64,000 nucleotides of DNA from an uncultured bacterium (GCA_964387845.1 CAYLXA010000010.1:32001-96000), one strand, 5' to 3'. Shown: positions 32,090 through 48,008, numbered from the stretch's first letter. Notes: generated by a model from the sequence alone, not told the origin. Numbers and translations: made by a program.

Positions 32090-32092
32090 CGG

Positions 32093-33265: not shown

Positions 33266-34038
33266 GATGAATGTTTCATTATAAATTGAATAGGCCGTTC
33301 GTAAAAATCCGGACCGGCTTGAAACGGCAGTTCATTATGTGTCCCGCCCCGAACCTCAAATAATTCTTTCGGCTGAGGCGCTGCTTCAAAAAGTTGTTTT
33401 CCCATTTCGAACGGACAGATTTCATCGTCGGTGCCGTGAACAATCAATAAAGGTGATTTCAATTTCGATACTTTTTCGTCGTTTCGCATTTGAAATCCCG
33501 AAAGCCATCCCGACGGAATGAAAGGATAATGCTTTTTTGCCATATCGGCAAGCGAAGTAAAGGGGGCTTCTAAAATTACCGCTTTGTATGCCGAATGAGA
33601 CGCAAGCTCTAAGATTGGGGCCGCGCCGATGGATTCGCCGTATAGAATAATATCCGAACTTTTAATTGTTTTTTCTTTTGTAAGCCAGTCAAGCCCCGAT
33701 TGCGCATCAGCATACAAGTCTTTTTCGCCCGTGATTTTTCCTTCACTTTTTCCGTAGCTGCGATAATCCAGCAAAAAAACCGAAAACCCGCGCTTGATCC
33801 ATTCTTCCGCTTTAAATAAGCGGTCCGCGATATTGCCCGCGTTGCCGTGTAAAAAGTAAACAACGCCTTTGGGCCCGGGCGCAGGCAAAAACCATCCGGA
33901 GATTTTAACATTGTCAGATGTCATAAGGAGAACCGTCTCCGACTTAAGGCCTAAATTCTCAGGCAAAACACCGTAGGATCCGGCCGGAAAGAAGATAAAC
34001 GATGCGATCATGATGTTCAGGAGTTGTGCGATATTCAT
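33262..34038 (-). CDS. Alpha/beta hydrolase (S9/S33-like)
   Basis: HGNAGN, the GESIGAAP nucleophile elbow and VHGTDDEICP are present. Confidence 0.85.
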   Translation of the reverse strand: MNIAQLLNIMIASFIFFPAGSYGVLPENLGLKSETVLLMTSDNVKISGWFLPAPGPKGVVYFLHGNAGNIADRLFKAEEWIKRGFSVFLLDYRSYGKSEGKITGEKDLYADAQSGLDWLTKEKTIKSSDIILYGESIGAAPILELASHSAYKAVILEAPFTSLADMAKKHYPFIPSGWLSGFQMRNDEKVSKLKSPLLIVHGTDDEICPFEMGKQLFEAAPQPKELFEVRGGTHNELPFQAGPDFYERPIQFIMKHSS

Positions 34039-34123
34039 TTAAAGTGACGGATATTATCGCACAAAACAAGGAAAGCGGAAAGAGTAAGCCCTTGTGCTGG
34101 CTTAATTGAGCTGCGTGAGAGCC

Positions 34124-34516
34124 TTAGGCAGATTTTCTGGTCGTCGCGAATCCTAAAAACCGGGAAACCAAAGTCGTTTCCACAGAAAATGCGGAATTGC
34201 GCCGAAGAGATTCAAAACTAGCGTCGGCCTTGGCTTGTACGTCACGATTCAGCATATCGCTCAAAGCCGGCAGCATATCGTCCGCACGCGCCTCAACCGA
34301 AATTGATTTTGTCCGAATCTCCTCAATTTCATACTTCGCTGATTCAGGCTGTAATGCTTCGGTTGTAATATTGATGCCGGCCGAATGAGAAGCGCCCGGC
34401 AAAATAATCTGCGGATTGAATACTTCGGCTTCGTGAATCGGCTGAGCAAACATAGGCTGGCCGAATATAAAGACACATACCAATAAAATCTTAAGGAACT
34501 TAATCGGGTTTTTCAT
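34124..34516 (-). CDS. Hypothetical small secreted protein
   Basis: Signal peptide MKNPIKFLKILLVCVFIFGQPMFA. No recognisable family. Confidence 0.4.
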   Translation of the reverse strand: MKNPIKFLKILLVCVFIFGQPMFAQPIHEAEVFNPQIILPGASHSAGINITTEALQPESAKYEIEEIRTKSISVEARADDMLPALSDMLNRDVQAKADASFESLRRNSAFSVETTLVSRFLGFATTRKSA

Positions 34517-34968
34517 CTTCTCTTATCCTTTCTGGTTCTGCCCGAGCTCACTTCAAGCAAAGGCATAAGAGAAGAAACGGTGGGATTTATTTCAGCGTCT
34601 CTTTCAAAATGCCCCTCTGAGAATCTTTCGAAAAAGAATCTCTCAGAAGGGCTTTGAAAGAGTCCTTCTAAGAAGATTGGCAACCCAGCCTTCCTCACCC
34701 GTCCGTGTAGGAACCGTGGCTTTGCGTCACCGGATTACTCCCCCGCTAAACTGAATAGCGAGTCCGCCAAGATTTGTGGCGGAAGTTTTGCCTTTTTCAG
34801 ACCTCCTAAAATGTGAGCTTTCAACGAGCAACTTGCTTAATAAAAAGGTGCCCCATGACTTTTTTAATGTCAAGAGTAACACCCCTCTTTTTTCAATACA
34901 AAAGGGAGTTATTTTAACGCTTAAATATGTATGTAAGTCATTAATATATAATGACTTACATCAATTTA

Positions 34969-37900
34969 TTAGGAGAATAATGCGGGTTGTCTGCGAGTCG
35001 ACCACTGAGGAAAAAGAGGAGATAACAGTTGGCTGACATCAATTCCTAAGCCGGCAAATCCTGAAAAAACAGGCGGAACCGGCGGAATATTGGGAAAAAG
35101 GAGGTTTCCGTTAAAAAACACATTTCCGGAAGGCTCATTGGGGCCGCCTAAATCGAAATTCAGGTCGGTATTCGGATTCACTAATTCACCATTAATATCA
35201 CCGTCGATGCTAATCGATGTACCGCCGCCATCTTGGCCGCCTGCGATTGTGGTCAGAACCGCACCGTTATTAATATCAACATCGATGCCGTCACCGGTGA
35301 CGCCAATCGTACCGCCTGCTGTTATACTGGAATCGGATCCGGCCGTAATATTATTCGCTGCACCGTTTCCATCCAGGACATTTCCGGTTGTGGCTTCAAT
35401 CATCACACTGCCATTGCCGGCATTAATGGTTCCTAAAATAAGGTCACCTGTCGGCGTAATCACGCAAATATCGCCATTCGCAACGGATGAATTGGCATTG
35501 ATCGTCGCCCCATCGGCCTCCATGATGAAAATACCGCCGGTTTGGCTGATCGCGTTGATCGTATTCGCTGCGGTATTCATTTTATTGAGAAGTGTTCCGA
35601 CCGAATTTCCAAAAAATTCAATATTGCTGCTCGTAATCACCGTTCCGATATTTCCGTCATCAAAAACATTGCCTGCTTGCGCCGTAAAACTCGCTGAGTT
35701 GGTCGTGTTCACACTGCCGACGGTGATATCGCCCGCCGTTGTGGTCAATGAAAAATCAGAATAACCGTTGATGCCTGTTGCCGAAGAAGCGCCGCCTGCT
35801 GTTGCGGTGACTGAGCCATTGGTCAAAAAGTTAGCGCCCGTAAAATTCATCCCGTTCAAACTGTTCATCGCAATGTTGCCATTCGCCGTGCTTTGAGCCA
35901 CAAATGAATTCACATTAAAATCAATGTCGCCGTTTGCAAGTGCAGAACCAATATTCCCAAGCGCCGTCAAGGAAAGTGAATTTGCATTAATCCGCGTTGA
36001 TTGCACAAAATCATCCACGATATTTCCGCCGGATGCGGTCAATGTTACATCGCCGTTGCCGGCATTGATACTTTGCAACGCCGCATCACCCAGAACCATA
36101 TCGCCTGTGGCGCTATTAATATTGATATCGCCATTCGCAGCCGAAGAATCCAAACCTTGAATGGTGACCGCGTCTAATTCATCAATAAAAATACCGCCGT
36201 TATTTGCAGTAATGCTGAGCGTAGCTGCTGCTGTGTTAATTTTGTTAGCAAGTGTCCCAACGGCATCTCCGATTAATGTGATGAGCCCGCCTGTGATTCT
36301 GGTAGCGTTGTTGGCGTCATCCACCAAATTTCCAGCTGCCGCCGAAAGCACCACATCACCCAAGCCTGCGTTGATGGTTCCAATGGTTAAATTGCCGAGT
36401 GTTGAAACAACATCAATCGTGCCATTTGCAGCCGAAGAATTCATATTGTTCAAAGTTGCGCCATTGGATTCACGCAAGAAAATGCCGCCGGCGTTTGCGG
36501 TTGCGTTCAATGTTGCTGCCGTCGTATTAATTCTCGCCGCCAAAGTTCCGATTGCATTTCCGACAAGCGTAATCACGTTGCCGCTTAAATTAGAAGTAGC
36601 ATCTACCAGATTTCCCGCGAGCGCTGTTAAACCGATATTTCCGGCTGTCGTGATAGTGCCAAGATTTAGATCGCCGGTTGTGGACGTCACATTGATATCG
36701 CCGGAACCCGTTGTGGCACCGACGGTCGCTCCGTTGGATTCTGTGACGTTGATTTCGCCTGTGCCGGTTCCTGTGATGTTAAGAGTTGTGGCCGTGGTAT
36801 TAATCGCAGCGCCTGATTGACCCACGTCACCGTCCGCGCCGCCTGCAATTAAGTTCACAATCACACCTGCAACACTGGAAGCCACGCCACCCAATAAGTC
36901 ACCTGCCAAAGCTGTTAAAGTTACATTGCCGGTTGTGGAGATGGTTCCAAGCGTTAAATCACCGGTGGTTGTTCTGACATCAATATTGCCGGAACCTGTC
37001 GTGGCGCCGACTGTCGCTCCGTTCGACTCTGTTACGAAAATATCGCCTGTGCCCGCACCGGTTAAGTTTAACGTGCCGGCCGTGGTCATAATTCGTCTCG
37101 TAGAAGTTCCGACATCACCGTCCGCGCCGCCCGCTGCGAGATTGACTGTAGTGCCGGTTACGGATGAATCCGCGTTCGTGTCGGTCACATCGCCATTTGA
37201 AGCAGCTAACGTCACTGCATTCGTAGCGCTCACGGTCCCGACTTCGAGATCACCCGAAGTGGTTGTCATGGAAAAATTTGTGTAGCCGGTTGCGCCGGTA
37301 ATGGACGAAGCACCCTCGGTTGTAACTGTCACAGACCCGGCGGTAACAAAATCAGCGCCCGTTAAAGTCGCGCCGCCGCCTGCGATTCTCGCAAAAATAT
37401 CACCATTACCAGAACTTGTCAGCGCTCCGACATTAGTAGTGGATGTGATATCCACGTCGCCATTCGCAGCTGATGAACCGATATTACTGGACGCGGTCAT
37501 GTTCACAGTTGAAGCAGAAACCGCCGTCGCTTGATTTCCGTCATCTAAAATGTGCCCGGCGTTGGCATTAACCGTCACCGTGTTTTCGGCATTCACAGTG
37601 CCAAGCGTCACATTACCGGTGGTTGCCGTTAAATCGATATTGTTTGTGCCGGTCCCGGTGGCAGAAGCATTGACGACCGTTAAATCACCGGCAGCCGTAA
37701 TAATAATTGAATCATTTACGGCAGATGCGTTGTTAACCGTCAGCGCCTGATCATTGGTAACGATAATTCGCCCATTGGCAGCAGCTGCATTCAGGGAGTT
37801 TGCACTAAGGTCAATATCGCGATTGCCGGTCGTTTGTCCGATATCCACCGCCGCATTGAGCGTTACTTCGTCGCCCGTAATTCGGGTTGCATCATCGTTA

Positions 37901-40167
37901 TCATCCAGAATCGATCCGTTGGTTGAAGTAACCGACACATCCCCGTTTCCGGCATCCACAGCCCGGACTGTAATATTGCCGCGGCCTGAAATGGCAATAT
38001 CGCCATCGTTCGTTATGACAGATGAGTTATTCGCCATCGAGAAATTGCCGCTCGAATCATTATCGCTGTTGGCCGTCAGTGTAATATTTCCGCCTCCTGT
38101 ACTCTGAACGATGGTATTTGAGGAAATCGAAAGATTGTTGCCTGCCAGCAAATTAATGCTGCCGGCAACGGATTGCACATCACTGTTGACGTTGAGATTG
38201 TTGAATGCGTTCGCGGTGACGCCGCCGTTGCCCTGGACCAGTCCGGCTAATGTAATATTGTTAAAACTGGTAGACGCTCCGGTTCCGATCGTGATTTGAC
38301 TATTCGCGCCGGTTGCAGATACATTGCGAATTGTGGTATTACCGGAACCGTAAATTTCAACATCGCCGCCGGCCAAAATTCCGGAATTGTTCGCCATAGT
38401 GAATGTTCCGCTTCCGTCATTGTTTGCATCCGCGTTCAGCAAAACATTTCCGTTGGTGGATTCAATTTCATAAGCAACGCTTCCGTTGGAATTGTTGCTG
38501 ATTGAAATTCCGTCATTGGCCATGACTGTAATCCCGGCTGCAGCTGATAAATAAGGAACCGTGAGATTTCCGCCGTTAATGGTCACGCTGTCGAAAGCCC
38601 GGTTAGTTCCGACCCGGATTTGTCCGTTTGTCGAGCGCACTTCGCGTAAAGTTGCAGAAGCTGCGGATGACCCGTCAATGGTGATATCACCAAACGCCAA
38701 AAGCTTCGAACCATTGTTCATCGTAAAAACGCCGTCATCGTTTGTATTGTTCGCATCGGTGATAACGGTAATAGTTCCGCCAGTTGACTGGATTGTGACG
38801 TTGTTATTAATGATGATGCCGCCGGCTGAGGTAAGCAAAATGTCGCCAGCAATAATTTGATTGGTAGAGATGGTAATATTTGCGTCCGGATCAAAAATAA
38901 CGAGCCCGCCCGTGAAGCCATCCGCCACAACTTGCAGAACGGTACCGCCGACATGTAAATCGCCGCCGAAAGCCGACAGGTCGAGCGTCCCGCCGTTTCC
39001 GGTAATACCGCCCGAGATATCAATCAAAGCATCCTGCTGAAAATCAGTACTGCCATAAAGGGAATTGATATAGATATTGCCGCCTTGCGACAATTCGCCG
39101 ATTCCGCGGGATGAAACGAGAGAGCCGGAAAGTAAATAAGTTCCGTACAGTGAAACAATATCAATGTTGCCGGCCGTGCCGTAATCCAACGCATTGGCTG
39201 AAATAATTCCAGAATGCTCAATCGTGTCGGACAAAATATTGATTGAGCCTCCGTTCGGATTTTCTACCGAACCATCCGCAATAATGCTTCCGGAATTCAC
39301 AATCGCACCGTTGGCAACCAATTCGATAACGCCATTTTGATTTACAACGCTCGTTGCTTCAATGATGCCGGTGTTGTTTACAAGATAAGTAAAAAGATCA
39401 TTAACTGCCTCAGCTTGTAAAATAATTTTTCCGCCGTTTGCGCGAATCACGCCGGAATTCAGAATCGCATCTTCGGCATCGGTAATGGTAGAAGCCAGCT
39501 GCTCATCGACAACCAGATTGATCAAGCCCTGCGGATCAAACGTGAGCGTCAGTTTTTCGCCGCTTGCCATGACAATGGAACCAAGGTCCGCAATCACGCT
39601 GCCGGAATTAGCGACCGATCCGCCCAAAAGCACCACAAAACCGCCCGGTTGAGCCGTGATGGTTCCTTGATTGACCACACTGCCCGCCTGCGAACCGTTT
39701 TCAAAAATTAAACTGCCGGCCAGAAAATTTGAATTTGAAAGCGTGAGACTTGATGCAATAAAACCCGCAACATTGATGCTGGCGCCTGCGCCGATATGAA
39801 TGCCCGCCGGATTGACGAGAAAAACATAACCGTTTGAGAAAATGGAGCCAAAAATATTGGACGTCGCTCCGCTGATATCATTATTGAGGATAGAACCGCC
39901 CGCAATGGAGAAAAGAAATGAAAATGTTTGCCCGATGTCGATATTAAAACCGTTCCAATTGAGAATCGTGCCGTCCTGAACGTCCGTAAAAGAATATCCG
40001 GAACCGGTATCCGTGCAGCCGCCGTATCCACCGGTTACAACCGTAACGCCGTCGCAAGCAAAGGCAGAAAAAACCTGAAGGAAAACAAACAGGAAAATAG
40101 CGAGAAACGCAACGGGCTTGGAGCGCTTTCGTATTGTAATCAGCTTTCCTTGTCTCGGAAAATCCAT
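34969..40167 (-). CDS. Two-partner-secretion exoprotein TpsA (filamentous-haemagglutinin family) with an N-terminal TPS domain and a long beta-helical repeat region
   Basis: TPS domain: ...GTILNWNGFNIDIGQTFSFLF...NIFGSIFSNGYVFLVNPAGIHIG...FENGSQAGSVVNQGTIT. Start assigned to the ATG at 40167 (MDFPRQG...signal peptide, AGGAAAGAG RBS). The upstream ORF-track extension is the 5' leader. Confidence 0.85.
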   Translation of the reverse strand: MDFPRQGKLITIRKRSKPVAFLAIFLFVFLQVFSAFACDGVTVVTGGYGGCTDTGSGYSFTDVQDGTILNWNGFNIDIGQTFSFLFSIAGGSILNNDISGATSNIFGSIFSNGYVFLVNPAGIHIGAGASINVAGFIASSLTLSNSNFLAGSLIFENGSQAGSVVNQGTITAQPGGFVVLLGGSVANSGSVIADLGSIVMASGEKLTLTFDPQGLINLVVDEQLASTITDAEDAILNSGVIRANGGKIILQAEAVNDLFTYLVNNTGIIEATSVVNQNGVIELVANGAIVNSGSIIADGSVENPNGGSINILSDTIEHSGIISANALDYGTAGNIDIVSLYGTYLLSGSLVSSRGIGELSQGGNIYINSLYGSTDFQQDALIDISGGITGNGGTLDLSAFGGDLHVGGTVLQVVADGFTGGLVIFDPDANITISTNQIIAGDILLTSAGGIIINNNVTIQSTGGTITVITDANNTNDDGVFTMNNGSKLLAFGDITIDGSSAASATLREVRSTNGQIRVGTNRAFDSVTINGGNLTVPYLSAAAGITVMANDGISISNNSNGSVAYEIESTNGNVLLNADANNDGSGTFTMANNSGILAGGDVEIYGSGNTTIRNVSATGANSQITIGTGASTSFNNITLAGLVQGNGGVTANAFNNLNVNSDVQSVAGSINLLAGNNLSISSNTIVQSTGGGNITLTANSDNDSSGNFSMANNSSVITNDGDIAISGRGNITVRAVDAGNGDVSVTSTNGSILDDNDDATRITGDEVTLNAAVDIGQTTGNRDIDLSANSLNAAAANGRIIVTNDQALTVNNASAVNDSIIITAAGDLTVVNASATGTGTNNIDLTATTGNVTLGTVNAENTVTVNANAGHILDDGNQATAVSASTVNMTASSNIGSSAANGDVDITSTTNVGALTSSGNGDIFARIAGGGATLTGADFVTAGSVTVTTEGASSITGATGYTNFSMTTTSGDLEVGTVSATNAVTLAASNGDVTDTNADSSVTGTTVNLAAGGADGDVGTSTRRIMTTAGTLNLTGAGTGDIFVTESNGATVGATTGSGNIDVRTTTGDLTLGTISTTGNVTLTALAGDLLGGVASSVAGVIVNLIAGGADGDVGQSGAAINTTATTLNITGTGTGEINVTESNGATVGATTGSGDINVTSTTGDLNLGTITTAGNIGLTALAGNLVDATSNLSGNVITLVGNAIGTLAARINTTAATLNATANAGGIFLRESNGATLNNMNSSAANGTIDVVSTLGNLTIGTINAGLGDVVLSAAAGNLVDDANNATRITGGLITLIGDAVGTLANKINTAAATLSITANNGGIFIDELDAVTIQGLDSSAANGDININSATGDMVLGDAALQSINAGNGDVTLTASGGNIVDDFVQSTRINANSLSLTALGNIGSALANGDIDFNVNSFVAQSTANGNIAMNSLNGMNFTGANFLTNGSVTATAGGASSATGINGYSDFSLTTTAGDITVGSVNTTNSASFTAQAGNVFDDGNIGTVITSSNIEFFGNSVGTLLNKMNTAANTINAISQTGGIFIMEADGATINANSSVANGDICVITPTGDLILGTINAGNGSVMIEATTGNVLDGNGAANNITAGSDSSITAGGTIGVTGDGIDVDINNGAVLTTIAGGQDGGGTSISIDGDINGELVNPNTDLNFDLGGPNEPSGNVFFNGNLLFPNIPPVPPVFSGFAGLGIDVSQLLSPLFPQWSTRRQPALFS

Positions 40168-40185
40168 TAACACTCTTTCCTCTTG

Positions 40186-40215
40186 GATTTCCCTGAGTTC
40201 GGAAGCTGACTGCCA
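40186..40215 (-). promoter_or_regulatory. Conserved 5'-leader element of tpsA (TCAGCTTCCGAACTCAGGGAAATCC on the mRNA), copy 1
   Basis: Near-identical to 45449-45477 upstream of the second tpsA. It lies 20-50 nt upstream of the start codon. Confidence 0.45.
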
Positions 40216-40490
40216 TGACGGTTGCAACCGTTTTAGGCTCTTGAGTTTTGCCTCATTCTACGCTCAGTCGCTTACGCGCTGGGCTTCGAAGAGCTCTACG
40301 AAGCCAAGCCGCGAAGGACTTGGCGAAGTAGAGGCCTTACTCTTTCGAGTAATTTGCCTCCGCCATACAGCGTAGCGGATCCGCCACGCTTTGTGGCGGA
40401 CTTTCGTTCAGAGATAAGATGATAAAACTAAAAAAAATTTTACCATATTGAGAAGATATTGCAAAAATTAAGATAAAAAACAGATAAAAC

Positions 40491-42194
40491 TTACCGCTTT
40501 GAATCAGTTAAGGCGGATTTTAATTCAGATTGGGCTTTTAAGCATTTGTCGCCCACGCAAGACGGCCAAACAGGCCTATCCGATCGCGAAAGGCTTAAAT
40601 GATCAAGGTAAAATGTTCCCAATTTCGGGTTTGTACTTCTTTCTAACTTCAAAGTAAACTCGGGCGATTCGCCGGGCTGCAGCTCTCCTGAAACCGGTAC
40701 CTCATAAAGCTGCCATGCAGTGGCAACATTTTTCGCAATCACAGGATGAGCGACCAGCGTTGCGCCCCTCCATTCAACTTTTAATTCCTTCGGGAAAGGC
40801 TGGGATGATCCCTTTAAATAGAACTTTAAGGTTTTGAAATCATTCGGATCAATGGCCGCAATTTCAAAAGTTTTCGGATTGATGCTGACCGTTACTTGGC
40901 AAACCGGTTTCTGTTTCGACTCAAGGTCGTAATCAATTTTTAAAGATTTTCCCCGAGGATCATTAAGCGCATCGCCACGGCTGAAAGCATAAGAGCATTC
41001 GCCATATGACTTAACCGAATAAAACTCGCTTGGCCGGCTGTTCGAAATCTTCTGAGGAGAAATGTTTTGATTAAAATCAGCCAAAACGAAATCTTCTATT
41101 AATTCGCAAGTTTGCGAACAATCTCCGGCAAATTCAGCCCGGTATTGACAAATCTCGTCGCCAATACCCAAACATTCATCTTGGTACAAACACTCTGTTC
41201 CGTCATCGCAAAACGAGCCGTTGTCGCATTCTTCCCCTTCATCTTCCACATTATCGCCGCAGCAAGATGGCTGCCCGGACGGATCGCAATCGCTGCAATC
41301 GGGCAAGCAAGTTTGTGCACAAATATAACCCTCACTGCTTGCGCAACCGATATCTCCGTTCACATCGCAAACTTCATCTCCGGTGATTTGACCATCTCCG
41401 CAGAAATTGGACGTCACACATTCACAGCCCGCACATACGTCCCCGCCTGTGCAATCACCGTCGGCTTCACATTCTTCACCCGGATCGACAATTCCGTTTC
41501 CGCAAATTCCCGTCGGAACACAGCTTCCTGACGGATTGCATGCTTGGTTAGGACCGCATTGAATGCAAATCGGATTTGCGCCGCATTGAGTGGCAGTATT
41601 TGTACACCCAAAACTTTCATTGCAAATATCTTCCGTACACGAAATCCCGTCATCACAAAGCGTATGATTCGGCGCATATTGGCATCCGTTCACCGGGTCG
41701 CAGGAATCTACCGTGCAGGCAAATGTGTCATCACAATCGAGAGGCATGCCTGCGGTGCAGGTACCGGCCTGGCAGGCTTCATCACCGTTGCAAACCGTGC
41801 CGTCGGCGCAGGAAGTGCCGTTTGAAACGGGCGCATGCGTACAGTTACCAGCGTTACACGCATCCGTTGTGCATGGATTGTTGTCATCACAGCCACCGGG
41901 ACATGGCGCGGCGCATACGTTCGCCCAAAATTGAATATCGAGCCCGTTAACGGCGCCGTCTACATTTAGATCGGCTGAACAAAATTCTTGCGGTGACGGA
42001 GGCGGCGGAAACCCGAGTAAAATGTTGATGAAAAGATTGAAATCGTCCTGGCCTTCGGCGGGTTCGATTGTGCCGTCATTATCGATATCGCAGAGTGTGC
42101 AAGCGACGCCGGCATGAGCAGGAAGAGAGCATGAAAATAGAACTGTAAAGAAAAACGTGGAAATGATTAAAAGAAGCTTAGACTTGCGAATCAC
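40491..42194 (-). CDS. Secreted cysteine-rich repeat protein (Myxococcus-type CGDG..GEECD repeats; dockerin/EF-hand-like DxDxDG segment) encoded between the two tpsA genes
   Basis: Signal peptide, DIDNDGTIEPAEGQDDF, and repeats CGNGIVDPGEECEADGDC, CGDGQITGDEVCDVNGD and CCGDNVEDEGEECDNGSFCDDG. There is a C-terminal non-Cys domain of about 200 aa. Confidence 0.75.
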   Translation of the reverse strand: MIRKSKLLLIISTFFFTVLFSCSLPAHAGVACTLCDIDNDGTIEPAEGQDDFNLFINILLGFPPPPSPQEFCSADLNVDGAVNGLDIQFWANVCAAPCPGGCDDNNPCTTDACNAGNCTHAPVSNGTSCADGTVCNGDEACQAGTCTAGMPLDCDDTFACTVDSCDPVNGCQYAPNHTLCDDGISCTEDICNESFGCTNTATQCGANPICIQCGPNQACNPSGSCVPTGICGNGIVDPGEECEADGDCTGGDVCAGCECVTSNFCGDGQITGDEVCDVNGDIGCASSEGYICAQTCLPDCSDCDPSGQPSCCGDNVEDEGEECDNGSFCDDGTECLYQDECLGIGDEICQYRAEFAGDCSQTCELIEDFVLADFNQNISPQKISNSRPSEFYSVKSYGECSYAFSRGDALNDPRGKSLKIDYDLESKQKPVCQVTVSINPKTFEIAAIDPNDFKTLKFYLKGSSQPFPKELKVEWRGATLVAHPVIAKNVATAWQLYEVPVSGELQPGESPEFTLKLERSTNPKLGTFYLDHLSLSRSDRPVWPSCVGDKCLKAQSELKSALTDSKR

Positions 42195-42464
42195 TACTGT
42201 GAGATTTCCCTTCAGAAATGACGTTAAGCGGTATTATAGCTAAAATATTAAGCAATTTCAAATGATTTTAGCTATTTGTGTGAGTTTAGGTGTTGATTAG
42301 TATTGGATTTCATCTAAAAAGTGAGGGGGGATTAACCAACGAAGAGAAACTTGATGCCCTGCTTACAATCAGCGCTCGGGTTGATACGGGCGGCAAAGAT
42401 AATACTTTGCGCGCCCGAATCTCCTGAGTTCCTATTCTTTTTTCAAACCAGTCTCTCAAATTAA

Positions 42465-45425
42465 TTAGAAGATTCCGAGAGACGGGCCGTGTCCTTGCTG
42501 TCCTGTTGCGGGCAAAACAAACAAAGCATTCAACAGATCAGTTGGTGTAATACCCGCCGCTAATAATTGAGCTAACGTTGTAAGGCCGCCTGTAGCGGTT
42601 GTAGTCACAACAACTGCATCGATCGGGAAAAGCTTAATACCGTTGAAGAAAACGGTTCCGGGAGGCGTTGTCAAGACATCCGGATCGCCAAAATTAAGAT
42701 TGGCACTAGGGTCTTCAACTTCGCCATTGATAACACCTTCTAAATTAATCGAGGTATCATCAGCATCCGTACCGCCTGCGCGGACAGTTAGCGTTGCGTC
42801 ATTTGTAATGTTGACATCGATTCCGTCAGCGGTAACGCCGATTGTACCGGCGGCTTCTAAGGTCGAATCCGCTCCAGCTACCACATTAACCGCAGCTCCA
42901 TTTGCATCCAAAATACTGCCGGTTAACGCATTGATAAATACCGAACCCGCCGTAGAAATCAAGCCAAGCAGCCAGTCACCGGTTGTAGATGTAACATTGA
43001 TGTTGCCGGAATCTGTTATTGCATTCAGGTTCGCTCCATCTGCCTCTACGATATTGACTTCACCGGTTCCAGTACCTGTAATGTTGAGCGTATCGGCTGT
43101 CGTGTTAATAGCAGCGCCAGCCTGTCCGACATCTCCATCCGCACCACCTGCAATTAAATTCACGATAGTACCCGTCACACTCGAAGCAACACCGCCCAAA
43201 AGGTCGCCTGCAAGCGCCATAAGCGTAACATTGCCCGTTGCCGCAATTGTGCCTAACGTCCAATCACCTGTTGTGGTAGTGGCATTAATATCGTTTGCAG
43301 CTGTTGCATCCAATATCGCACCATTCGATTCCGTAACAAAGATTGATCCCAATGTTGAAACAAGGTTCAAAGTGCTAGCCATTGTATTAATCATCAAATC
43401 GCCTAGCCCCCCAACATTTCCATTTGCTGTCAGAATCACGGTGCTGGCTGAGATCAAAGACCCTGCGGTGCCTAAAATGCTGCCGCCGAAGGCATTCAAT
43501 TCAATATGATTGGCCAACGCATAACCGATCAGCAAATCACCGGTAATAACATTGCCCAAGATGCTGCCGGGAGCTTCTGCATTCAAGATAACGCTGTCTA
43601 ATTCATTAAAGATGATGGAGCCGGTGTTCACTATGAAGTAAAGCACATCGGCAGCCGTATTGATGATTGCATCACCCACGCCGCCGATATCATTGCCGGC
43701 CGATAGAATCACGGTGCTGGCTGAGATCAAAGACCCTGCGGTGCCTAAAATGCTGCCGCCGAAGGCCGCTAACTCAACTGTTCCATTTCCCGCGTTCATT
43801 GTGCCGACGTTAATGTTTCCAGAATTTGACAAGACTCCAATCATTCCATTATTTGAGGACGTATCAATGTTCGTGATAGTCGCGTTATTTGTAGTAATGA
43901 ACACATTGCCGCCGCTCACAATATCGCTACCGGCAGCTTGGACAAAATCTCCTGAGTTGTCGGCATCAACGTCCGTATTGATATTCAGAACACTGCCAGT
44001 GTCCGCTGTAATATCTGCATTGACCGTAACGCCTTCATTTGCCGTAATGGCAACATTGCCAAAAACCTGCAGGTCGCTCAATAATGAAACCCCGCCATCG
44101 GCAAAAATACTGGAGCCATCATTCATAACAAATGAACCTGCGCCGCTGCTATCGGCATCTGCCTGAAACGCTGCGCTTCCGCCTGTCACATTGACACTTG
44201 CACCAGCATTAAAAATAAGGTCGTTATTAGCAAAAAAGTTTTGATCTCCGGCAAAATTATTAACACCGTCAAAAATAATGTCGTCACCGGCGCCTAATTC
44301 AAAATCGCCTCCGCCGGAGCCTGTGCGAGCATGCACATCTGACCGCAGCCCACGGACAGAAATTGACCCGTTGTCTAAATAGATGTTATTCGCAAAAATT
44401 CCGCCATAACCGGCAAGCCCGCCTTCCAAGGCATCTGCCAGAATACTGCCGGAATGCGCAACAGTTTGCCCTTCAATGCGGAGATAGCCAGCATCTGCAT
44501 TTTCAACGCTGCCGCTCACATTCAAAACTCCCGAATTATGAACAGCGCCACCATTACCAATAAGCTCGATCACACCGTTTCTAACAACCACGCTGACGGC
44601 TTCGATAATGCCTGTGTTATTGACAAGCTGAGTAAAAATATTTCCCACAGTCTCGGCCCGCAACAGGACTTTTCCGCCATCGGCTTTAATGAGACCTGCG
44701 TTAGCAACCGCGACTTCGCTTTCATTATTAATGGTTGAAACAAGCGCTTCAGGAATAGAGAGATTGATGAGGCCGTTCGGATCAAATGTAATCGTCGCAG
44801 TTTCACCGCTGGCAAGAACCACAGACCCTAATTCAGCGACAATGCTTCCCATATTGGCTACGGAGCTGCCCAAGAGGACAACAAAACCGCCCGGCTGAGC
44901 CACAATATGGCCTTCATTAATAACACTTCCGGCTTGAGAACCATTTTCGAAGGTGTAATTTCCGGAGAGGAAGTTTGCTGTAGAAATACTAAGTGTTGAG
45001 GCAACCAGGCCGGCCACATCGATATTGGCCATTGACCCTATGTTAATGCCGGCTGGATTAACGATAAATACAAAGCCGTTTGAGAATAAATTTCCGAATA
45101 TATTGGAAGCTACACCGCCGGTCACGTTATTTAAAACCGAACCGCCGGCAATATTAAACCAAAAGTTAAAGGTTTGTCCCAAATCAATATTGAATTGATC
45201 CCAATTAAAAACCGTTCCATCTTGAAGCCCGTTAAATGTACAACCCGAAGCATCGCAGCTATAGCTATCATAACCACCCGCTTCAACCTCCGGCGGCACA
45301 ACATCGTCCGCATACAAAGGAATTACTTGAAAACAAAAAAGGGCAAATGAAAGGACAAGGGAAAGAACTTTGAAATATTTGGAAACCCGAATGGAGTTAA
45401 GCGTTACAACTTTTGGAAGCTGCAT
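42465..45425 (-). CDS. Two-partner-secretion exoprotein TpsA paralog (TPS domain plus beta-helical repeats)
   Basis: TPS domain: GTVFNWDQFNIDLGQTFNFWF...NIFGNLFSNGFVFIVNPAGINIG...FENGSQAGSVINEGHIV. The C-terminal tail is homologous to the other TpsA (..VFFNG..LFP..). Confidence 0.85.
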   Translation of the reverse strand: MQLPKVVTLNSIRVSKYFKVLSLVLSFALFCFQVIPLYADDVVPPEVEAGGYDSYSCDASGCTFNGLQDGTVFNWDQFNIDLGQTFNFWFNIAGGSVLNNVTGGVASNIFGNLFSNGFVFIVNPAGINIGSMANIDVAGLVASTLSISTANFLSGNYTFENGSQAGSVINEGHIVAQPGGFVVLLGSSVANMGSIVAELGSVVLASGETATITFDPNGLINLSIPEALVSTINNESEVAVANAGLIKADGGKVLLRAETVGNIFTQLVNNTGIIEAVSVVVRNGVIELIGNGGAVHNSGVLNVSGSVENADAGYLRIEGQTVAHSGSILADALEGGLAGYGGIFANNIYLDNGSISVRGLRSDVHARTGSGGGDFELGAGDDIIFDGVNNFAGDQNFFANNDLIFNAGASVNVTGGSAAFQADADSSGAGSFVMNDGSSIFADGGVSLLSDLQVFGNVAITANEGVTVNADITADTGSVLNINTDVDADNSGDFVQAAGSDIVSGGNVFITTNNATITNIDTSSNNGMIGVLSNSGNINVGTMNAGNGTVELAAFGGSILGTAGSLISASTVILSAGNDIGGVGDAIINTAADVLYFIVNTGSIIFNELDSVILNAEAPGSILGNVITGDLLIGYALANHIELNAFGGSILGTAGSLISASTVILTANGNVGGLGDLMINTMASTLNLVSTLGSIFVTESNGAILDATAANDINATTTTGDWTLGTIAATGNVTLMALAGDLLGGVASSVTGTIVNLIAGGADGDVGQAGAAINTTADTLNITGTGTGEVNIVEADGANLNAITDSGNINVTSTTGDWLLGLISTAGSVFINALTGSILDANGAAVNVVAGADSTLEAAGTIGVTADGIDVNITNDATLTVRAGGTDADDTSINLEGVINGEVEDPSANLNFGDPDVLTTPPGTVFFNGIKLFPIDAVVVTTTATGGLTTLAQLLAAGITPTDLLNALFVLPATGQQGHGPSLGIF

Positions 45426-45448
45426 GGAACACCTCTATCTTTAAATTG

Positions 45449-45477
45449 GTTTTCCCTGATTCGGGAGCTGATGATCT
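45449..45477 (-). promoter_or_regulatory. Conserved 5'-leader element of tpsA, copy 2
   Basis: ggttttccctgattcgggagctgatgatc versus ggatttccctgagttcggaagctgactgc at 40186-40215. Confidence 0.45.
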
Positions 45478-45698
45478 GAATGAAAATGAAAATTTCGATT
45501 GCAGACTCTTGAGCTTTGCTTCTCACCTACTTGACATTGATCAATTTGGCAAGCGCCATTTCGTCAGAGATAGGTTGAGCATATCATTTTGAATTATTGT
45601 GTCAACGCTTTTTTCGGTCAATTTTGAACAATATTTGGCTTGCGTGCTAATTTAGGCCGAAAGAGTCCCAAACCGCTCCCGCGGCTAAAAGCTGGAAG

Positions 45699-47426
45699 CT
45701 AATAATTTACCTGAAGACCGAAATGAATACGGCTCGCACTGCCTTCTGATGATTTTCCGCCAACCGGAATACCCCAATCGATACGGCCTTGCAAATTGCG
45801 GGCAATGTTCACTCGAATACCGCCTCCCACGCTCGTCATACGCTGACTTGAATCTTCATTCTCAAACGGATCAATCACAAATGCTTTTCCAAAATCAACA
45901 AACGCAACTCCGCGAACGATATCTCGGATTGCCATTTTTGTGATTGGGCATTTTAAATCTTTGGGAATGAAATACGGAGGAACGCGGACTTCAAGAGAGC
46001 CTTGAAATCCGTAATCGCCGAGATATTCGCCTTCCGGATATCCGCGGACAGTGTCATATCCGCCTATGCGGAATTGTTGAGCCGGTATCAAACGGTGCGG
46101 TGTCAATTGAAAACTGGTTCGGCCAACCGCCTGAATTCCGTTCCAAATATTCTGAAGGCGGCCGATAGAAGCGTTGTATTGCCAAAAATAGCCGTCGGCT
46201 TCACGCCTGCTGGCATTCGGGTCATTGTTATCCAAACCACCCATGAAACCCCCAAAAGCGACTTGGACGTTATTTGAAAAAATGCTCCTGCCCCATCGAT
46301 CGTTTTCAATAAAGTTAGGGCCAAAACGAAAAACACGTAAATCATCTTTGGCAACCGGAATGCCCTGCACTAAAGTTCGAATGCGCTTGTAATCAAAGCC
46401 GGTTGTAAATTCTCCCTGCACATATTTGGAATGGAGAAAAGGCATAATTAACGTGGGTCCGAACACAACCGCGCGGCCGGCAGCCGCCAGCGGTTTTAGA
46501 TCCTTGCCCAACTCAACTTCAACACGGCTAAAGTCAAATGTCAAAATATCGCCGCGCGCATTTAAAGGAACCTGATAACTGCTTGAAACACCGATAAAAT
46601 CTCTCCGCTCCGAAATTTCAACTCTGCTGGACAACTGGTCATCAAATCCCAGCAAATTTGTCGCAGTGGCCGTTGCAGATTGCCGAAAACGCCCGGTCGA
46701 AACCGTTCCTAAATTATTAAAACCATATCCGGCGTGAAACGGAAACTTTTCTTCTACTTTGAGAATAATATCCGTTGTTTCGGGCTTTTCTCCCGGCTCC
46801 AGCACAACCCGCACAATTCTGTCCGGATTTGCATTTAGTGCCGTCAAATATCTTTCAAGATTTTGATAGCGTAAAATGTCGCCTTCACGAACATTAAAAC
46901 GCCTTCTGACCAAACTCTCACGCGTGTATTTAAGGCCTTCGATTTTAATCAAACCGACTTTTGCTTCATGAATTTGAATGCGCACTTGCCCGTCTTCGAG
47001 TTTTTGCGGCGGAACAATCGCTCGAGTCGTGACATAGCCGCGAGTGCGGTAATGGGCCGTAATGTCTAAAGCAAGCTCTTTTAATTTTTGAAGATTGGTT
47101 GATTGATTTTCATAGGGACGCTTAAACTCATCGATAACGTCTTGAGGGAAAACGGTTCCGCCATCAACGCGGATAGACGTAATCGGAAATTCGGTATCCG
47201 GAAGGCCGGCCCCTTCTTCTTCAACGTATTTATTCTCAATTTCGGGCAGCGCAATTTCTTCCAAACGCTTGTACTGCGGCTGTTCGCGGAATTTTTCAGC
47301 AAGCACGCCCGCCTGTTCCGAAGCCGGAACAGATTCATCGGCAGCATAAACAGAGGTTGTTAGAACACCAAGAAGAAGAAAATAAAATATTGCAAATTTA
47401 ATTAATGAATTTCCGCGGGCTGACAC
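45699..47426 (-). CDS. TpsB outer-membrane transporter (ShlB/FhaC/HecB family: POTRA plus 16-strand barrel)
   Basis: Signal peptide, POTRA-like region (ITSIRVDGGTVFPQDVIDEF...) and a C-terminal beta-barrel with alternating hydrophobic residues. It sits adjacent to the tpsA genes. Confidence 0.8.
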   Translation of the reverse strand: MSARGNSLIKFAIFYFLLLGVLTTSVYAADESVPASEQAGVLAEKFREQPQYKRLEEIALPEIENKYVEEEGAGLPDTEFPITSIRVDGGTVFPQDVIDEFKRPYENQSTNLQKLKELALDITAHYRTRGYVTTRAIVPPQKLEDGQVRIQIHEAKVGLIKIEGLKYTRESLVRRRFNVREGDILRYQNLERYLTALNANPDRIVRVVLEPGEKPETTDIILKVEEKFPFHAGYGFNNLGTVSTGRFRQSATATATNLLGFDDQLSSRVEISERRDFIGVSSSYQVPLNARGDILTFDFSRVEVELGKDLKPLAAAGRAVVFGPTLIMPFLHSKYVQGEFTTGFDYKRIRTLVQGIPVAKDDLRVFRFGPNFIENDRWGRSIFSNNVQVAFGGFMGGLDNNDPNASRREADGYFWQYNASIGRLQNIWNGIQAVGRTSFQLTPHRLIPAQQFRIGGYDTVRGYPEGEYLGDYGFQGSLEVRVPPYFIPKDLKCPITKMAIRDIVRGVAFVDFGKAFVIDPFENEDSSQRMTSVGGGIRVNIARNLQGRIDWGIPVGGKSSEGSASRIHFGLQVNY

Positions 47427-47795
47427 GACCTCTCCCTCGTTAGACTTGTTATAAAGTGAGCCTGAGAATAGTGGTTATTTTATGCTTCGATAAATTTTTT
47501 GCAAGTACTTTCGAAATTTAATTTAAGGGGTTTGGTGCTATTAAGATCGGCAAAAGAGGCCTAAACATTAGGAGGTTACACGAAAGACAATAGAGAAGAA
47601 AGAAGGAAATAACCGACCGAAGTTAGAAAAGCCGGCTACGACTGTAACCGACCCCCGCCAGATAGGCGGAAAGGCAAAAGCCAGATTTCGAACCCAGTCG
47701 GAGAGTTTGTTTTCGAGTTGGGCTTGCCTTTTTCATAACTTCAAAGCCGTTGTTAAAGATCTAAAAAAACAAAATTAAAGCCTCTAAACGGTGAA

Positions 47796-47838: not shown

Positions 47839-47867
47839 TACTTGTGGGTCAATCGATTCGGCTTATT

Positions 47868-48008
47868 TCACGCCGATTCGACGGTAGAGCAGCAATACAG
47901 CGCCGATTACAAAGAACGGCATGTAGCTAACCAGCGTTGTTCCAAAATGCAGCCCTACGATAATCCCCACCACAATACCTAGTGTTAAATGTTCGTCGAT
48001 CTTCATTT
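47868..48008 (-). CDS. Small (46 aa) hydrophobic protein
   Basis: MKIDEHLTLGIVVGIIVGLHFGTTLVSYMPFFVIGAVLLLYRRIGVK, preceded by a GGGGGTGAG RBS. It is below the ORF-track size cutoff. Confidence 0.3.

What the first reader, a model, noticed from the sequence alone, without database searches (positions are those of the whole stretch)
34969..47426. Two-partner-secretion locus with tandem TpsA paralogs and an interposed Myxococcus-type cysteine-rich repeat protein
The gene order on the minus strand is tpsB (45699-47426), tpsA1 (986 aa), a Cys-rich secreted protein (567 aa), then tpsA2 (1752 aa). Both TpsA proteins have clear TPS domains, G/N/T-rich beta-helix repeats and homologous short C-terminal tails (..NFDLGGPNEPSGNVFFNGNLLFP.. 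versus ..NFGDPDVLTTPPGTVFFNGIKLFP..). There is no obvious CdiA-like toxin tip.

The Cys-rich protein combines a dockerin/EF-hand-like Asp-rich loop with CGDG..GEECD repeats and a C-terminal ~200-aa domain. Its position between the two exoproteins suggests it is a co-secreted or partner component. That arrangement has not been described for TPS systems.
Basis: partly seen in the sequence, partly recalled or inferred. Interest (0 to 1): 0.6.

Follow-up and report, generated by a model that had tools for sequence, protein, structure and literature searches.

The report
TPS adhesin locus with lectin-like neighbour
This is a real two-partner-secretion adhesin locus, probably from an uncultivated Omnitrophota bacterium, in which a cysteine-rich dockerin-plus-carbohydrate-binding-fold protein is a conserved neighbour of the long exoprotein gene, but nothing yet shows the two proteins work together.

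Summary
On the minus strand lie tpsB (POTRA_2 + ShlB barrel), tpsA1 (986 aa), a 567-aa Cys-rich gene and tpsA2. tpsA2 is 1732 aa from ATG 40167, not 1752 aa. Both TpsAs have TPS domains, homologous C-terminal tails and no toxin tip. They share at most 65-71% DNA identity. An independent assembly matches window 30491-43461 at 100%, so the paralogs are not an assembly artefact.

In three related lineages the order is tpsB-cys-tpsA2, so the Cys-rich gene is the older resident and tpsA1 is the addition.

In the window, three of the four are atypical or degenerate.

The parts
47863..48006 (-). orf47: small two-helix membrane peptide (MKIDEHLTLGIVVG...), conserved just upstream of tpsB
   Evidence: tblastn identity of 50-92% at the same position in L001, L033, L034, L036 and L037. 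Called as a 45-47-aa gene.
47706..47743 (-). tpsB leader: probable remnant of a c-di-GMP-I aptamer (weak)
   Evidence: The 5' part, GGCTTTGAAGTTATGAAAAAGGCAAGC, nearly matches the start of the riboswitch upstream of tpsB in L001, which passes Rfam gathering at 51 bits. The custom model gives only 10.8 bits, E 1.2.
45699..47426 (-). tpsB: FhaC/ShlB-type Omp85 transporter, 575 aa
   Evidence: POTRA_2, POTRA, ShlB and Omp85. VRGY at residue 460. Orthologs at 61-69% identity in syntenic loci.
45455..45572 (-). tpsA1 leader: diverged c-di-GMP-I-like element, with the P2 hairpin replaced by about 35 nt
   Evidence: Custom model R1: 17.9 bits, E 0.0085. Canonical riboswitches occupy the same tpsB|tpsA spacer in L033 (60.3 bits) and L037 (63.2 bits). 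No Rfam hit here at E<=1.
42465..45425 (-). tpsA1: 986-aa TpsA exoprotein, an old paralog and a lineage-specific addition
   Evidence: TPS domain and TIGR01901. 55% identity to TpsA2 over the first 360 aa, and a separate deep branch in the tree. Absent from L001, L002 and L036. Internal 273-nt-spaced repeat at 43432-43504 and 43705-43777.
42233..42261 (-). Conserved sigma70-like promoter of the Cys-rich gene (TTGAAA-17-TATAAT)
   Evidence: Best promoter match in the region, 11 of 12. The hexamers and the downstream ACCGCTTAACGT are conserved in L001, L002 and L036 within otherwise diverged spacers.
40491..42194 (-). Cys-rich gene, 567 aa: signal peptide, dockerin-like module (about residues 32-97), Cys-rich spacer (about 98-364), CBM11-like jelly roll (about 365-540), C-terminal helix
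40193..40412 (-). tpsA2 leader: split c-di-GMP-I-like aptamer. P2 hairpin at 40334-40355 and P3 half at 40193-40267, separated by an insert of about 70-80 nt predicted to form two hairpins, plus a further hairpin insertion at 40380-40400
   Evidence: Rfam RF01051 at 27.2 bits, below the gathering score of 35. R1 gives 27.1 bits (E 1e-5) and 13.9 bits. The same insert is in L002, while L001 is canonical at 59.2 bits. Folds.
34969..40167 (-). tpsA2: 1732-aa TpsA exoprotein, the conserved cargo of the locus
   Evidence: TPS domain and TIGR01901. 76% identity to the L001 TpsA and 81% to the L002 TpsA. The A2 clade is preceded by the cys gene in every locus where the upstream sequence is available.
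34675..34802 (-). c-di-GMP-I riboswitch aptamer with a 54-nt insertion, leader of orf130
   Evidence: RF01051 at 42.6 bits, above the gathering score of 35. R1 gives 39.6 bits, E 2e-9. Orthologous leaders in L001 and L034 pass RF03167.
34124..34516 (-). orf130: small secreted protein of unknown function, conserved downstream of tpsA
   Evidence: Signal-peptide-like N-terminus. 52% identity to the L001 ortholog and 31% to the L034 ortholog. No Pfam hit.

Best explanation
This is a chromosomal, FHA-type (non-toxin) two-partner-secretion adhesin locus, probably from an uncultivated Omnitrophota bacterium.

TpsB has two POTRA domains and an Omp85 barrel. It should export two paralogous beta-helical TpsA exoproteins, recognised through their N-terminal TPS domains. 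This export step is inferred from family membership.

The Cys-rich gene is a resident of the locus specific to this clade. It has its own promoter. It encodes a Sec-exported, disulfide-rich modular protein with three parts:
- a Ca-binding type-I dockerin-like module;
- a rod-like Cys-repeat spacer of variable length;
- a CBM11-like jelly-roll domain.

This is the build of a lectin-type adhesion or attachment protein. Its ancestral position is directly upstream of tpsA2 (tpsB-cys-tpsA2). tpsA1 was inserted later between tpsB and the cys promoter.

I infer that the protein works in the same adhesion process as TpsA2, as an accessory glycan-binding component. It is not a TpsB substrate.

tpsB, the tpsA genes and a downstream small secreted-protein gene carry c-di-GMP-I-type riboswitch leaders in this clade. 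The TPS part of the locus is therefore probably tuned by c-di-GMP. The Cys-rich gene is not preceded by such a leader.
For: **TPS membership**
-.

**No toxin tip, homologous tails**
-.

**The paralogs are real**
- At most 65-71% DNA identity.
- 100% match to an independent assembly over window 30491-43461.

**Conserved order tpsB-cys-tpsA2**
- L001: TpsB 67%, Cys-rich protein 50%, TpsA 76% identity.
- L002/L003.
- L036, where the contig ends inside cys, so only tpsB-cys is seen.
- The A2-clade TpsA always follows cys.
- L034 lacks both cys and a TPS-domain TpsA but keeps tpsB.

**Conserved cys promoter**
-.

**Domain assignment of the Cys-rich protein**
-.
- 42 invariant Cys.
- The repeat number varies between orthologs.

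**Riboswitch leaders**
-.

**Genomic context and taxonomy**
- Housekeeping flanks and even GC content argue against a recent island.
- Omnitrophota attribution: the only genome-collection hit spanning both the dockerin-like and the CBM-like regions (window residues 32-537) is a Ca. Omnitrophota MAG. Distant TpsB hits are named Ca. Omnitrophica.
- Non-cellulosomal dockerin and CBM-like folds have been proposed as adhesion modules in this phylum (PMC10066038; bioRxiv 10.1101/2023.11.21.568195).
Against: - The linkage is seen only in a narrow clade (TpsB at least 61% identical) that also shares flanking synteny. Conservation could therefore be simple inheritance.
- The cys gene has its own promoter and lacks the riboswitch leader of its neighbours.
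- Distant paralogs with the same architecture (P0185, P0186) are not next to TPS genes on their short contigs.
- TPS loci with about 40% TpsB identity have neither the gene nor the riboswitches.
- No cohesin-like partner was found in the window.
- The window protein itself does not reach any Pfam CBM model.
- The dockerin match is borderline.
- Three of the four leaders in the window are atypical or degenerate.
Confidence: 0.55

Rival explanations
1. Physical third component. The Cys-rich protein binds TpsA2. Either its dockerin-like module or its CBM-like domain docks onto the beta-helix or the conserved C-terminal tail. The result would be a composite adhesin with a lectin tip on a TpsA fibre, or a periplasmic or outer-membrane tether that retains the TpsA C-terminus.
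For: - The gene is invariably adjacent to A2-clade tpsA genes.
- L034 lacks both cys and a TPS-domain TpsA.
- Dockerin modules are protein-protein docking devices (established knowledge of cellulosomes).
- The TpsA C-terminal tail is conserved between the paralogs and survives even in the 249-aa remnant protein of L034.
Against: - There is no direct evidence of any kind.
- No cohesin-like region was detected in TpsA1 or TpsA2.
- The cys gene has a separate promoter without a riboswitch.
- Paralogs exist outside TPS loci.
- A complex prediction could not be run with the tools available.
Confidence: 0.18
2. Unrelated neighbour. The Cys-rich protein is an independent secreted glycan-binding or attachment protein. 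It sits in a variable surface-protein hotspot between orf280/ferredoxin and hydrolase/PFK, and it stays next to tpsA2 only through shared descent.
For: - It has its own conserved promoter.
- Paralogs P0185 and P0186 are in non-TPS contexts.
- The 27 other Cys-repeat loci have no TPS genes nearby.
- More distant TPS loci lack the gene.
- The content of the site varies between lineages.
Against: - The gene's position is kept while the spacers and the protein itself diverge to 49% identity.
- The tpsA1 insertion left the cys-tpsA2 pair intact.
- cys and TpsA are both absent in L034.
Confidence: 0.3
3. Assembly artefact. The two tpsA genes would be a mis-assembled or collapsed repeat of one gene, with the Cys-rich gene joined in chimerically.
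For: - An independent Logan contig ends inside tpsA1, at window 43461. That point lies within an internal repeat (73-nt copies spaced 273 nt apart), so the copy number of that repeat is uncertain.
Against: - tpsA1 and tpsA2 share at most 65-71% DNA identity, and only over two segments.
- Their N-termini are 55% identical, and tpsA1 branches outside the A2 clade.
- The Logan contig matches window 30491-43461 at 100%.
- The same cys-tpsA2 junction occurs in L001 and L002.
Confidence: 0.02
4. Contact-dependent inhibition (CdiBAI-like) or haemolysin-type TPS toxin system, with the Cys-rich protein or orf130 serving as the immunity or activation factor.
For: - The tpsB-tpsA organisation.
- A small ORF downstream of tpsA2.
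Against: - No PT-VENN motif or toxin domain.
- The C-terminal tails are conserved between paralogs and orthologs rather than polymorphic.
- orf130 has a signal peptide and its own riboswitch, so it does not look like a cytoplasmic immunity protein.
- The Cys-rich protein is exported.
Confidence: 0.03

Closest known systems
FHA/FhaC-type two-partner secretion adhesins (type Vb), e.g. Bordetella FhaB/FhaC
   Same: A TpsB with two POTRA domains, a ShlB barrel and VRGY. TpsAs with an N-terminal TPS (NPxG) domain, followed by a long G/N/T-rich repeat region and no toxin. In Bordetella, other adhesion genes (fimBCD) also lie between the TpsA and TpsB genes (my own knowledge).
   Different: There are two TpsA paralogs served by a single TpsB. 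The repeats do not match the Fil_haemagg Pfam models. The C-terminal tail is short and conserved. The interposed gene encodes a dockerin/Cys-rich/CBM-like protein rather than fimbrial machinery. The organism is from a PVC-group candidate phylum.
CdrA/CdrB of Pseudomonas aeruginosa (c-di-GMP-regulated TPS matrix adhesin)
   Same: A TPS adhesin whose expression is tied to c-di-GMP and whose function involves polysaccharide binding (my own knowledge; PMC4768041 appeared in the search).
   Different: CdrAB is regulated by transcription factors, not riboswitches. Here separate GEMM-I-type leaders precede tpsB, tpsA and orf130. The putative glycan-binding module is on a separate protein.
Non-cellulosomal dockerin plus CBM proteins; cellulosomal Lic26A-Cel5E (CBM11 + dockerin); Omnitrophota 'Dockerin-type' giant proteins
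   Same: A type-I dockerin-like duplicated Ca loop combined with a CBM11-like jelly roll. Dockerin and CBM-like folds have been proposed as attachment modules in Omnitrophota.
   Different: The protein is small (567 aa), has no catalytic domain and carries a 270-aa disulfide-rich spacer. No cohesin partner has been identified. It lies in a TPS locus.
Slime-mold (Dicty_CTDC, PF00526) and DUF4215/TIGR02232 cysteine-rich repeat proteins of Myxococcota and related groups
   Same: CxxxC-rich repeats. PF00526 is above its cutoff. Pairwise identity to PF13948 proteins is 35-37%.
   Different: There is no TIGR02232 or PF13948 HMM hit and no MYXO-CTERM. The dockerin and CBM11-like ends are unique to a tiny family. 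None of the other 27 repeat-protein loci examined has TPS genes.
c-di-GMP-I (GEMM-I, RF01051 / RF03167) riboswitches
   Same: Seven leaders in related loci and one in the window pass the Rfam gathering scores.
   Different: Several occur in one TPS locus. The window and L002 tpsA2 leaders carry an insert of about 80 nt, predicted to form two hairpins, between P2 and the GCAAA junction. The window tpsA1 and tpsB leaders are degenerate.

Membership tests
Two-partner secretion system (type Vb) | TpsB: POTRA domains plus a ShlB/FhaC Omp85 barrel with a conserved VRGY motif in loop L6 | tested here: met
   POTRA_2 78.8 bits, POTRA 41.7 bits, ShlB 71.7 bits, Omp85 33.8 bits. VRGY at residue 460.
Two-partner secretion system (type Vb) | TpsA: N-terminal TPS secretion domain (PF05860 / TIGR01901, NPxG motif) after a signal peptide | tested here: met
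   TpsA1: 77.5 and 53.1 bits. TpsA2: 64.4 and 43.1 bits. NPAG motif at residue 122-123 in TpsA1 and 118-119 in TpsA2.
Two-partner secretion system (type Vb) | TpsB-dependent export of the TpsA | not testable with these tools
   Needs heterologous co-expression and a secretion assay.
Two-partner secretion system (type Vb): the Cys-rich protein as a TpsB substrate | The substrate carries a TPS domain | tested here: not met
   No TPS or TIGR01901 hit in the Cys-rich protein. It has 52 mature Cys.
CDI (CdiBAI) systems | PT-VENN or an equivalent pretoxin boundary, a polymorphic C-terminal toxin and an adjacent immunity gene | tested here: not met
   No VENN motif and no toxin Pfam domain. The tails are conserved between paralogs and orthologs.
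Type I dockerin | Duplicated Ca-binding loop-helix (EF-hand-like) segment of about 60-70 aa | tested here: inconclusive
   Pfam Dockerin_1 at 22.8 bits against a cutoff of 22.9. Profile hit to dockerin structures, with 5nrk_B at E 0.0018 and several more at E 0.03-0.6. The AF2 model of this region has low confidence.
Type I dockerin | A cognate cohesin partner | tested here: not met
   No cohesin hit in any window protein scanned. The rest of the genome was not available.
TIGR02232 Myxococcus cysteine-rich repeat / PF13948 DUF4215 | HMM match | tested here: not met
   No NCBIfam hit at E<=10. No PF13948 hit at E<=0.01. Only pairwise similarity to PF13948 proteins.
Dicty_CTDC (PF00526) slime-mold repeat | HMM match above the gathering score | tested here: met
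   28.1 bits against a cutoff of 27, in two stretches. Most of the 377 homologs carry PF00526.
CBM11-like carbohydrate-binding module | Beta-jelly-roll fold superimposable on CBM11 | tested here: met
CBM11-like carbohydrate-binding module | Sequence-profile membership (PF03425) | tested here: not met
   The window domain hits no Pfam family. 8 of 22 domain-family members hit CBM_11. The family profile hits PDB CBM11 entries 2lro and 1v0a at E 0.006-0.007.
CBM11-like carbohydrate-binding module | Glycan binding | not testable with these tools
   Needs a glycan array or ITC on the recombinant domain.
c-di-GMP-I riboswitch (RF01051) | Covariance-model score at or above the gathering threshold | tested here: met
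   Window 34676-34802 at 42.6 bits against 35. Seven more in L001, L033, L034, L036 and L037. The window tpsA2 leader, at 27.2 bits, does not reach threshold.

The most novel reading that the evidence does not exclude
The dockerin/Cys-rich/CBM11-like protein is a true third structural component of a TPS adhesin. After Sec export and disulfide formation it would dock onto TpsA2, either on the beta-helix or on the conserved C-terminal tail. That would give the fibre a lectin head or tether it to the envelope. Expression of the TPS genes would be set gene by gene through c-di-GMP riboswitches. This would be a three-part, riboswitch-gated attachment device in ultra-small bacteria that may depend on host cells.
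Probability: 0.15. Interest if true: 0.7.

Novelty: new variant of a known kind. Interest (0 to 1): 0.42.

Why it matters
TPS systems are normally described as two proteins. Accessory proteins are known for only a few of them, for example glycosyltransferases, proteases and immunity proteins.

A conserved lectin-like dockerin protein sitting beside the exoprotein gene gives a concrete, testable candidate for how these bacteria attach to other cells or to glycans. Omnitrophota are uncultivated, very small, and thought to depend on hosts or prey.

Separate c-di-GMP riboswitch leaders on tpsB, tpsA and a downstream gene would be a compact example of a second messenger controlling a type V secretion system at the RNA level. 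I found no such case in the searchable literature.

If the gene is only a neighbour, the locus is an ordinary FHA-type TPS system in an unusual phylum.

Tried and rejected
**Searches that found little or nothing**
- A genome-contig scan with the TpsB alignment found nothing. The window's genome and its close relatives are apparently not among the GTDB representatives.
- The second genome scan, with the Cys-rich family alignment, gave one Omnitrophota MAG hit on a 3.5-kb contig. The other five loci (Planctomycetota and Phycisphaerae) matched only the dockerin-like module.
- The metagenome scan with the Cys-rich alignment returned only L005 (the same contig as L001) as a full-length relative. 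The other 27 loci share only the Cys repeats and have no TPS genes.
- The search for homologous proteins with the C-terminal-domain profile returned only two proteins. The exhaustive representative search was more useful, with 85 hits.
- Cluster look-up gave no names or accessions for the window proteins.
- Literature searches found nothing on TPS with a dockerin partner, on Omnitrophota TPS systems, or on a c-di-GMP riboswitch upstream of a TPS or haemagglutinin gene.

**Structure work**
- The full-length AF2 model of the Cys-rich protein was poor, with pLDDT 41. Only the C-terminal domain was usable.
- The dockerin and spacer regions remain unmodelled.
- The afdb50 fold library was unavailable.

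**Other dead ends**
- TIGR02232 and PF13948 membership was rejected.
- The slime-mold-repeat protein upstream of tpsB in L037 is not an ortholog of the Cys-rich gene, because it lacks the dockerin and CBM-like ends.
- A complex prediction of the Cys-rich protein with the TpsA tails could not be run. The tool predicts monomers only and refuses chimeric sequences.
- Spurious Rfam hits at E<=1 (mir-3524, SNORD47, ST7-OT4_3) were dismissed.

Full report
**1. The observation**

The minus strand carries four large ORFs at the coordinates given (translations).

- The 575-aa protein has POTRA_2, POTRA, ShlB and Omp85 domains. It also has the VRGY motif at residue 460.
- Both large G/N/T-rich proteins have a TPS secretion domain (PF05860) and the TIGR01901 NPxG domain. 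G+N+T+S+A is 51.5% and 57.6%.
- Neither has a VENN motif or any toxin domain.
- The 567-aa protein has 53 cysteines, a Dicty_CTDC match just above cutoff and a Dockerin_1 match just below cutoff.

One correction concerns the tpsA2 start. Orthologs begin MDFP..., and an independent gene call for the identical sequence in L004 gives 1732 aa. The upstream TTG lies inside a conserved leader element. The start is therefore ATG 40167, giving 1732 aa.

**2. Not an assembly artefact**

- tpsA1 and tpsA2 share only two DNA segments, at 65% and 71% identity.
- Over the first 360 residues they are 55% identical, and TpsA1 branches outside the clade that holds TpsA2 and its orthologs.
- No tandem arrays were found.
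- An independent Logan assembly of another run matches window 30491-43461 at 100%. That span covers the 3' end of tpsA1, the Cys-rich gene, tpsA2 and the downstream genes.
- The Logan contig stops inside a repeat internal to tpsA1, made of 73-nt copies spaced 273 nt apart. The copy number of that repeat is the only assembly uncertainty.

**3. Genomic context and organism**

The flanks are housekeeping genes. On one side are the alpha/beta hydrolase, PFK, HAD and GlpD-like genes. On the other are ferredoxin, a 280-aa membrane protein, FIST and MFS. Cytochrome oxidase, aconitase and others lie further out. GC content is even across the window.

The same flanks surround the locus in a 525-kb JGI contig, L001. 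This is a chromosomal, vertically inherited site.

The taxonomic evidence points to Omnitrophota:
- The only genome-collection hit spanning both the dockerin-like and the CBM-like regions of the Cys-rich protein (residues 32-537) is a Candidatus Omnitrophota MAG.
- Distant TpsB hits are named Ca. Omnitrophica.
- The window also holds a 4114-aa ORF with almost no recognisable domains, a trait reported for this phylum.

I treat Omnitrophota as probable, not proven.

**4. Is the Cys-rich gene part of homologous TPS loci?**

Among 5.8 billion proteins, only two relatives cover the full length: P0002 (62%) and P0003 (49%). The other hits share only the Cys repeats.

| Locus | TpsB identity to window | Arrangement |
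|---|---|---|
| L001 | 67% | tpsB - cys - tpsA (76% to TpsA2) - orf132 |
| L002/L003 | 67-68% (C-terminal fragment only) | end of tpsB - cys - tpsA (81% to TpsA2) |
| L036 | 61% | tpsB - cys, then the contig ends |
| L033 | 68% | tpsB - tpsA, then the contig ends |
| L037 | 65.5% | tpsB - tpsA, then the contig ends |
| L034 | 50% | syntenic; tpsB kept, no cys and no TPS-domain TpsA |

The conserved core is therefore tpsB-cys-tpsA2, and the window's tpsA1 is an addition.

In L033 and L037, both the TpsB and the TpsA group with the window's tpsB and tpsA1 side of the trees. They may share the window's four-gene layout.

In L034, a 249-aa repeat protein sits in place of TpsA. It retains a TpsA-like extreme C-terminus.

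TPS loci with about 40% TpsB identity have no such gene. Twenty-seven other slime-mold-repeat loci have no TPS genes nearby.

Two distant paralogs, P0185 and P0186, have the same dockerin/Cys-repeat/CBM-like build. They sit in non-TPS contexts on short contigs.

The linkage is nevertheless confined to one narrow, syntenic clade.

**5. What the Cys-rich protein is**

- **Signal peptide.** It is cleavable. The Cys at residue 22 is not conserved, so this is not a lipoprotein.
- **Residues ~32-97.** Two DxDxDG-type loops match type I dockerin structures. The best is 5nrk_B at E 0.0018, with several others weaker.
- **Residues ~98-364.** A Cys-rich spacer. It matches Dicty_CTDC and is 35-37% identical to PF13948 'cysteine-rich repeat' proteins. 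It gives no TIGR02232 or PF13948 HMM hit. The number of repeats differs between orthologs, as expected of a stalk.
- **Residues ~365-540.** This domain belongs to a small family with 85 representatives among 1.8 billion proteins, many of them ~200-aa proteins that consist of little more than this domain.
  - Eight of 22 members reach Pfam CBM_11.
  - The family profile hits the CBM11 structures 2lro and 1v0a at E 0.006-0.007.
  - With a 22-sequence alignment AF2 gives pLDDT 79.5 and pTM 0.76.
- **Rate of change.** The protein evolves faster than its neighbours: 50% identity to its L001 ortholog, against 67-97% for the other genes compared. It still keeps 42 invariant cysteines.

An anchoring module, a stalk and a lectin-like head together form the architecture of an attachment protein. 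Dockerin-like and CBM-like folds have been proposed as adhesion modules in Omnitrophota (PMC10066038; bioRxiv 10.1101/2023.11.21.568195).

**6. Regulation**

Rfam finds a c-di-GMP-I riboswitch at 34676-34802 (42.6 bits against a gathering score of 35). It lies between tpsA2 and a conserved 130-aa gene for a putative secreted protein.

Seven more riboswitches pass gathering in the related loci:
- upstream of tpsB in L001;
- in the cys|tpsA spacer in L001;
- in the tpsB|tpsA spacer in L033 and L037;
- upstream of the orf130 orthologs in L001 and L034, as the GGC variant model RF03167;
- upstream of a 227-aa ORF that precedes tpsB in L036.

In the window the other three leaders are homologous but atypical.
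- **tpsA2 leader.** It has a P2 hairpin (40334-40355) and a P3 half (40193-40267), separated by an insert of about 70-80 nt predicted to form two hairpins. The insert is shared with L002 and absent from L001.
- **tpsA1 leader** (45455-45572). It scores 17.9 bits with a clade-specific model.
- **tpsB leader.** It keeps only the first ~27 nt of the aptamer.

Whether these three still sense a ligand is unknown.

The Cys-rich gene has no such leader. It has its own sigma70-like promoter, TTGAAA-17-TATAAT, conserved in four lineages within otherwise diverged spacers. That alignment also shows that tpsA1 was inserted upstream of this promoter.

More distant TPS loci have no riboswitch.

**7. Mechanism**

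*Shown*
- Family membership of TpsB and both TpsAs.
- Absence of a toxin tip.
- The modular make-up of the Cys-rich protein.
- Conserved adjacency to tpsA2.
- An independent promoter for the Cys-rich gene.
- Riboswitch leaders on the TPS genes of the clade.

*Inferred*
- TpsB exports both TpsAs as beta-helical surface or released adhesins.
- c-di-GMP tunes tpsB, tpsA and orf130 through the leaders.
- The Cys-rich protein is exported by Sec, oxidised in the periplasm, and contributes glycan binding to the same attachment process.

It is very unlikely to pass through TpsB. It has no TPS domain, and TpsB channels take unfolded substrates (established knowledge of type Vb secretion).

A direct TpsA2-Cys-rich complex is possible but untested. 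I give it about 0.15-0.2. Pure neighbourhood by descent remains a serious rival at about 0.3.

**8. Comparison and novelty**

The locus is a member of the type Vb/TPS family, of the FHA-like adhesin kind. It is not a CDI system.

What departs from described systems:
- the conserved dockerin/Cys-rich/CBM11-like neighbour;
- two old TpsA paralogs served by one TpsB;
- multiple GEMM-I leaders within one TPS locus.

I found no paper describing a dockerin-type TPS partner or a c-di-GMP riboswitch on a TPS gene. Only open-access literature was searched.

Interposed adhesion genes in a TPS locus do have a precedent in Bordetella, where fimBCD lie between fhaB and fhaC (my own knowledge).

I rate it a new variant of a known kind, with interest 0.42.

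Noticed in passing
window 34675-34802 (-), with the hairpin at 34597-34664 (-): A c-di-GMP-I riboswitch aptamer (42.6 bits; gathering score 35) with a 54-nt insertion precedes the 130-aa gene. A strong stem-loop follows it, then CATTTTG, which could be a terminator-type expression platform. Rfam mislabels that hairpin as mir-3524. Orthologous leaders in L001 and L034 score best with the GGC variant model RF03167.
   Followed up: partly
window 40193-40412 (-); L002:2108-2285: The tpsA2 leader is a split GEMM-I-like aptamer. An insert of about 70-80 nt, predicted to form two hairpins, sits between the P2 hairpin and the GCAAAAC junction. The insert is conserved between the window and L002 and absent from the canonical L001 version. 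It is unknown whether the element still binds a ligand.
   Followed up: partly
window 45455-45572 (-) and 47706-47743 (-): The tpsA1 and tpsB leaders are diverged or degenerate homologs of riboswitches that are canonical at the same positions in L033, L037 and L001. This lineage may be losing, or rewiring, riboswitch control.
   Followed up: partly
window 34763-34783 and 40380-40400: Near-identical short hairpins (TCCGCCACAAAtCtTGGCGGA and TCCGCCACAAAGCGTGGCGGA on the minus strand) are inserted into two different riboswitch leaders. No further copy was found in the window with a 10-nt core search. This may be a small insertion element or a recruited structural module.
   Followed up: partly
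window 47863-48006 (-): A 47-aa predicted membrane peptide (MKIDEHLTLGIVVGIIVGLHFG...) is conserved at 50-92% identity immediately upstream of the tpsB leader in all related loci. That is more conserved than TpsB itself. Its function is unknown.
   Followed up: partly
window 34124-34516 (-): orf130 is a small protein with a signal peptide and no family match. It lies directly downstream of tpsA in the window and L001 and always has its own riboswitch. It is kept even in L034, which has lost TpsA.
   Followed up: partly
L034:8368-9117: In a syntenic relative, tpsB is followed by a 249-aa signal-peptide protein instead of cys and tpsA. That protein has DPVERFEL tandem repeats and an extreme C-terminus (SPLQAPWSERKRPNFVL) resembling the TpsA2 tail (SPLFPQWSTRRQPALFS). 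It may be a TpsA remnant, or a hint that the tail has a function of its own.
   Followed up: partly
window 43432-43504 and 43705-43777: tpsA1 has an internal direct repeat: 73-nt copies at 93% identity, spaced 273 nt (91 aa) apart. An independent assembly breaks exactly here, so the repeat copy number, and with it the TpsA1 length, may be underestimated.
   Followed up: yes
window 1892-14236 (-): A 4114-aa ORF whose only recognisable domain is a SAM-methyltransferase at about residues 3253-3400. Such domain-poor giant ORFs are typical of what has been reported for Omnitrophota.
   Followed up: no
L037:3-1499: In one relative, a different slime-mold-repeat protein is encoded upstream of the orf47-tpsB unit. 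It has Ig/cadherin-like regions and no dockerin or CBM-like ends. Cys-repeat surface proteins seem to gather around this site.
   Followed up: partly
L039:1-9838: A TPS locus with about 40% TpsB identity has a giant (>6300 aa) DUF5649-containing protein encoded upstream of tpsB and a CHASE2-guanylate cyclase next to it. It has no Cys-rich gene and no riboswitch.
   Followed up: no
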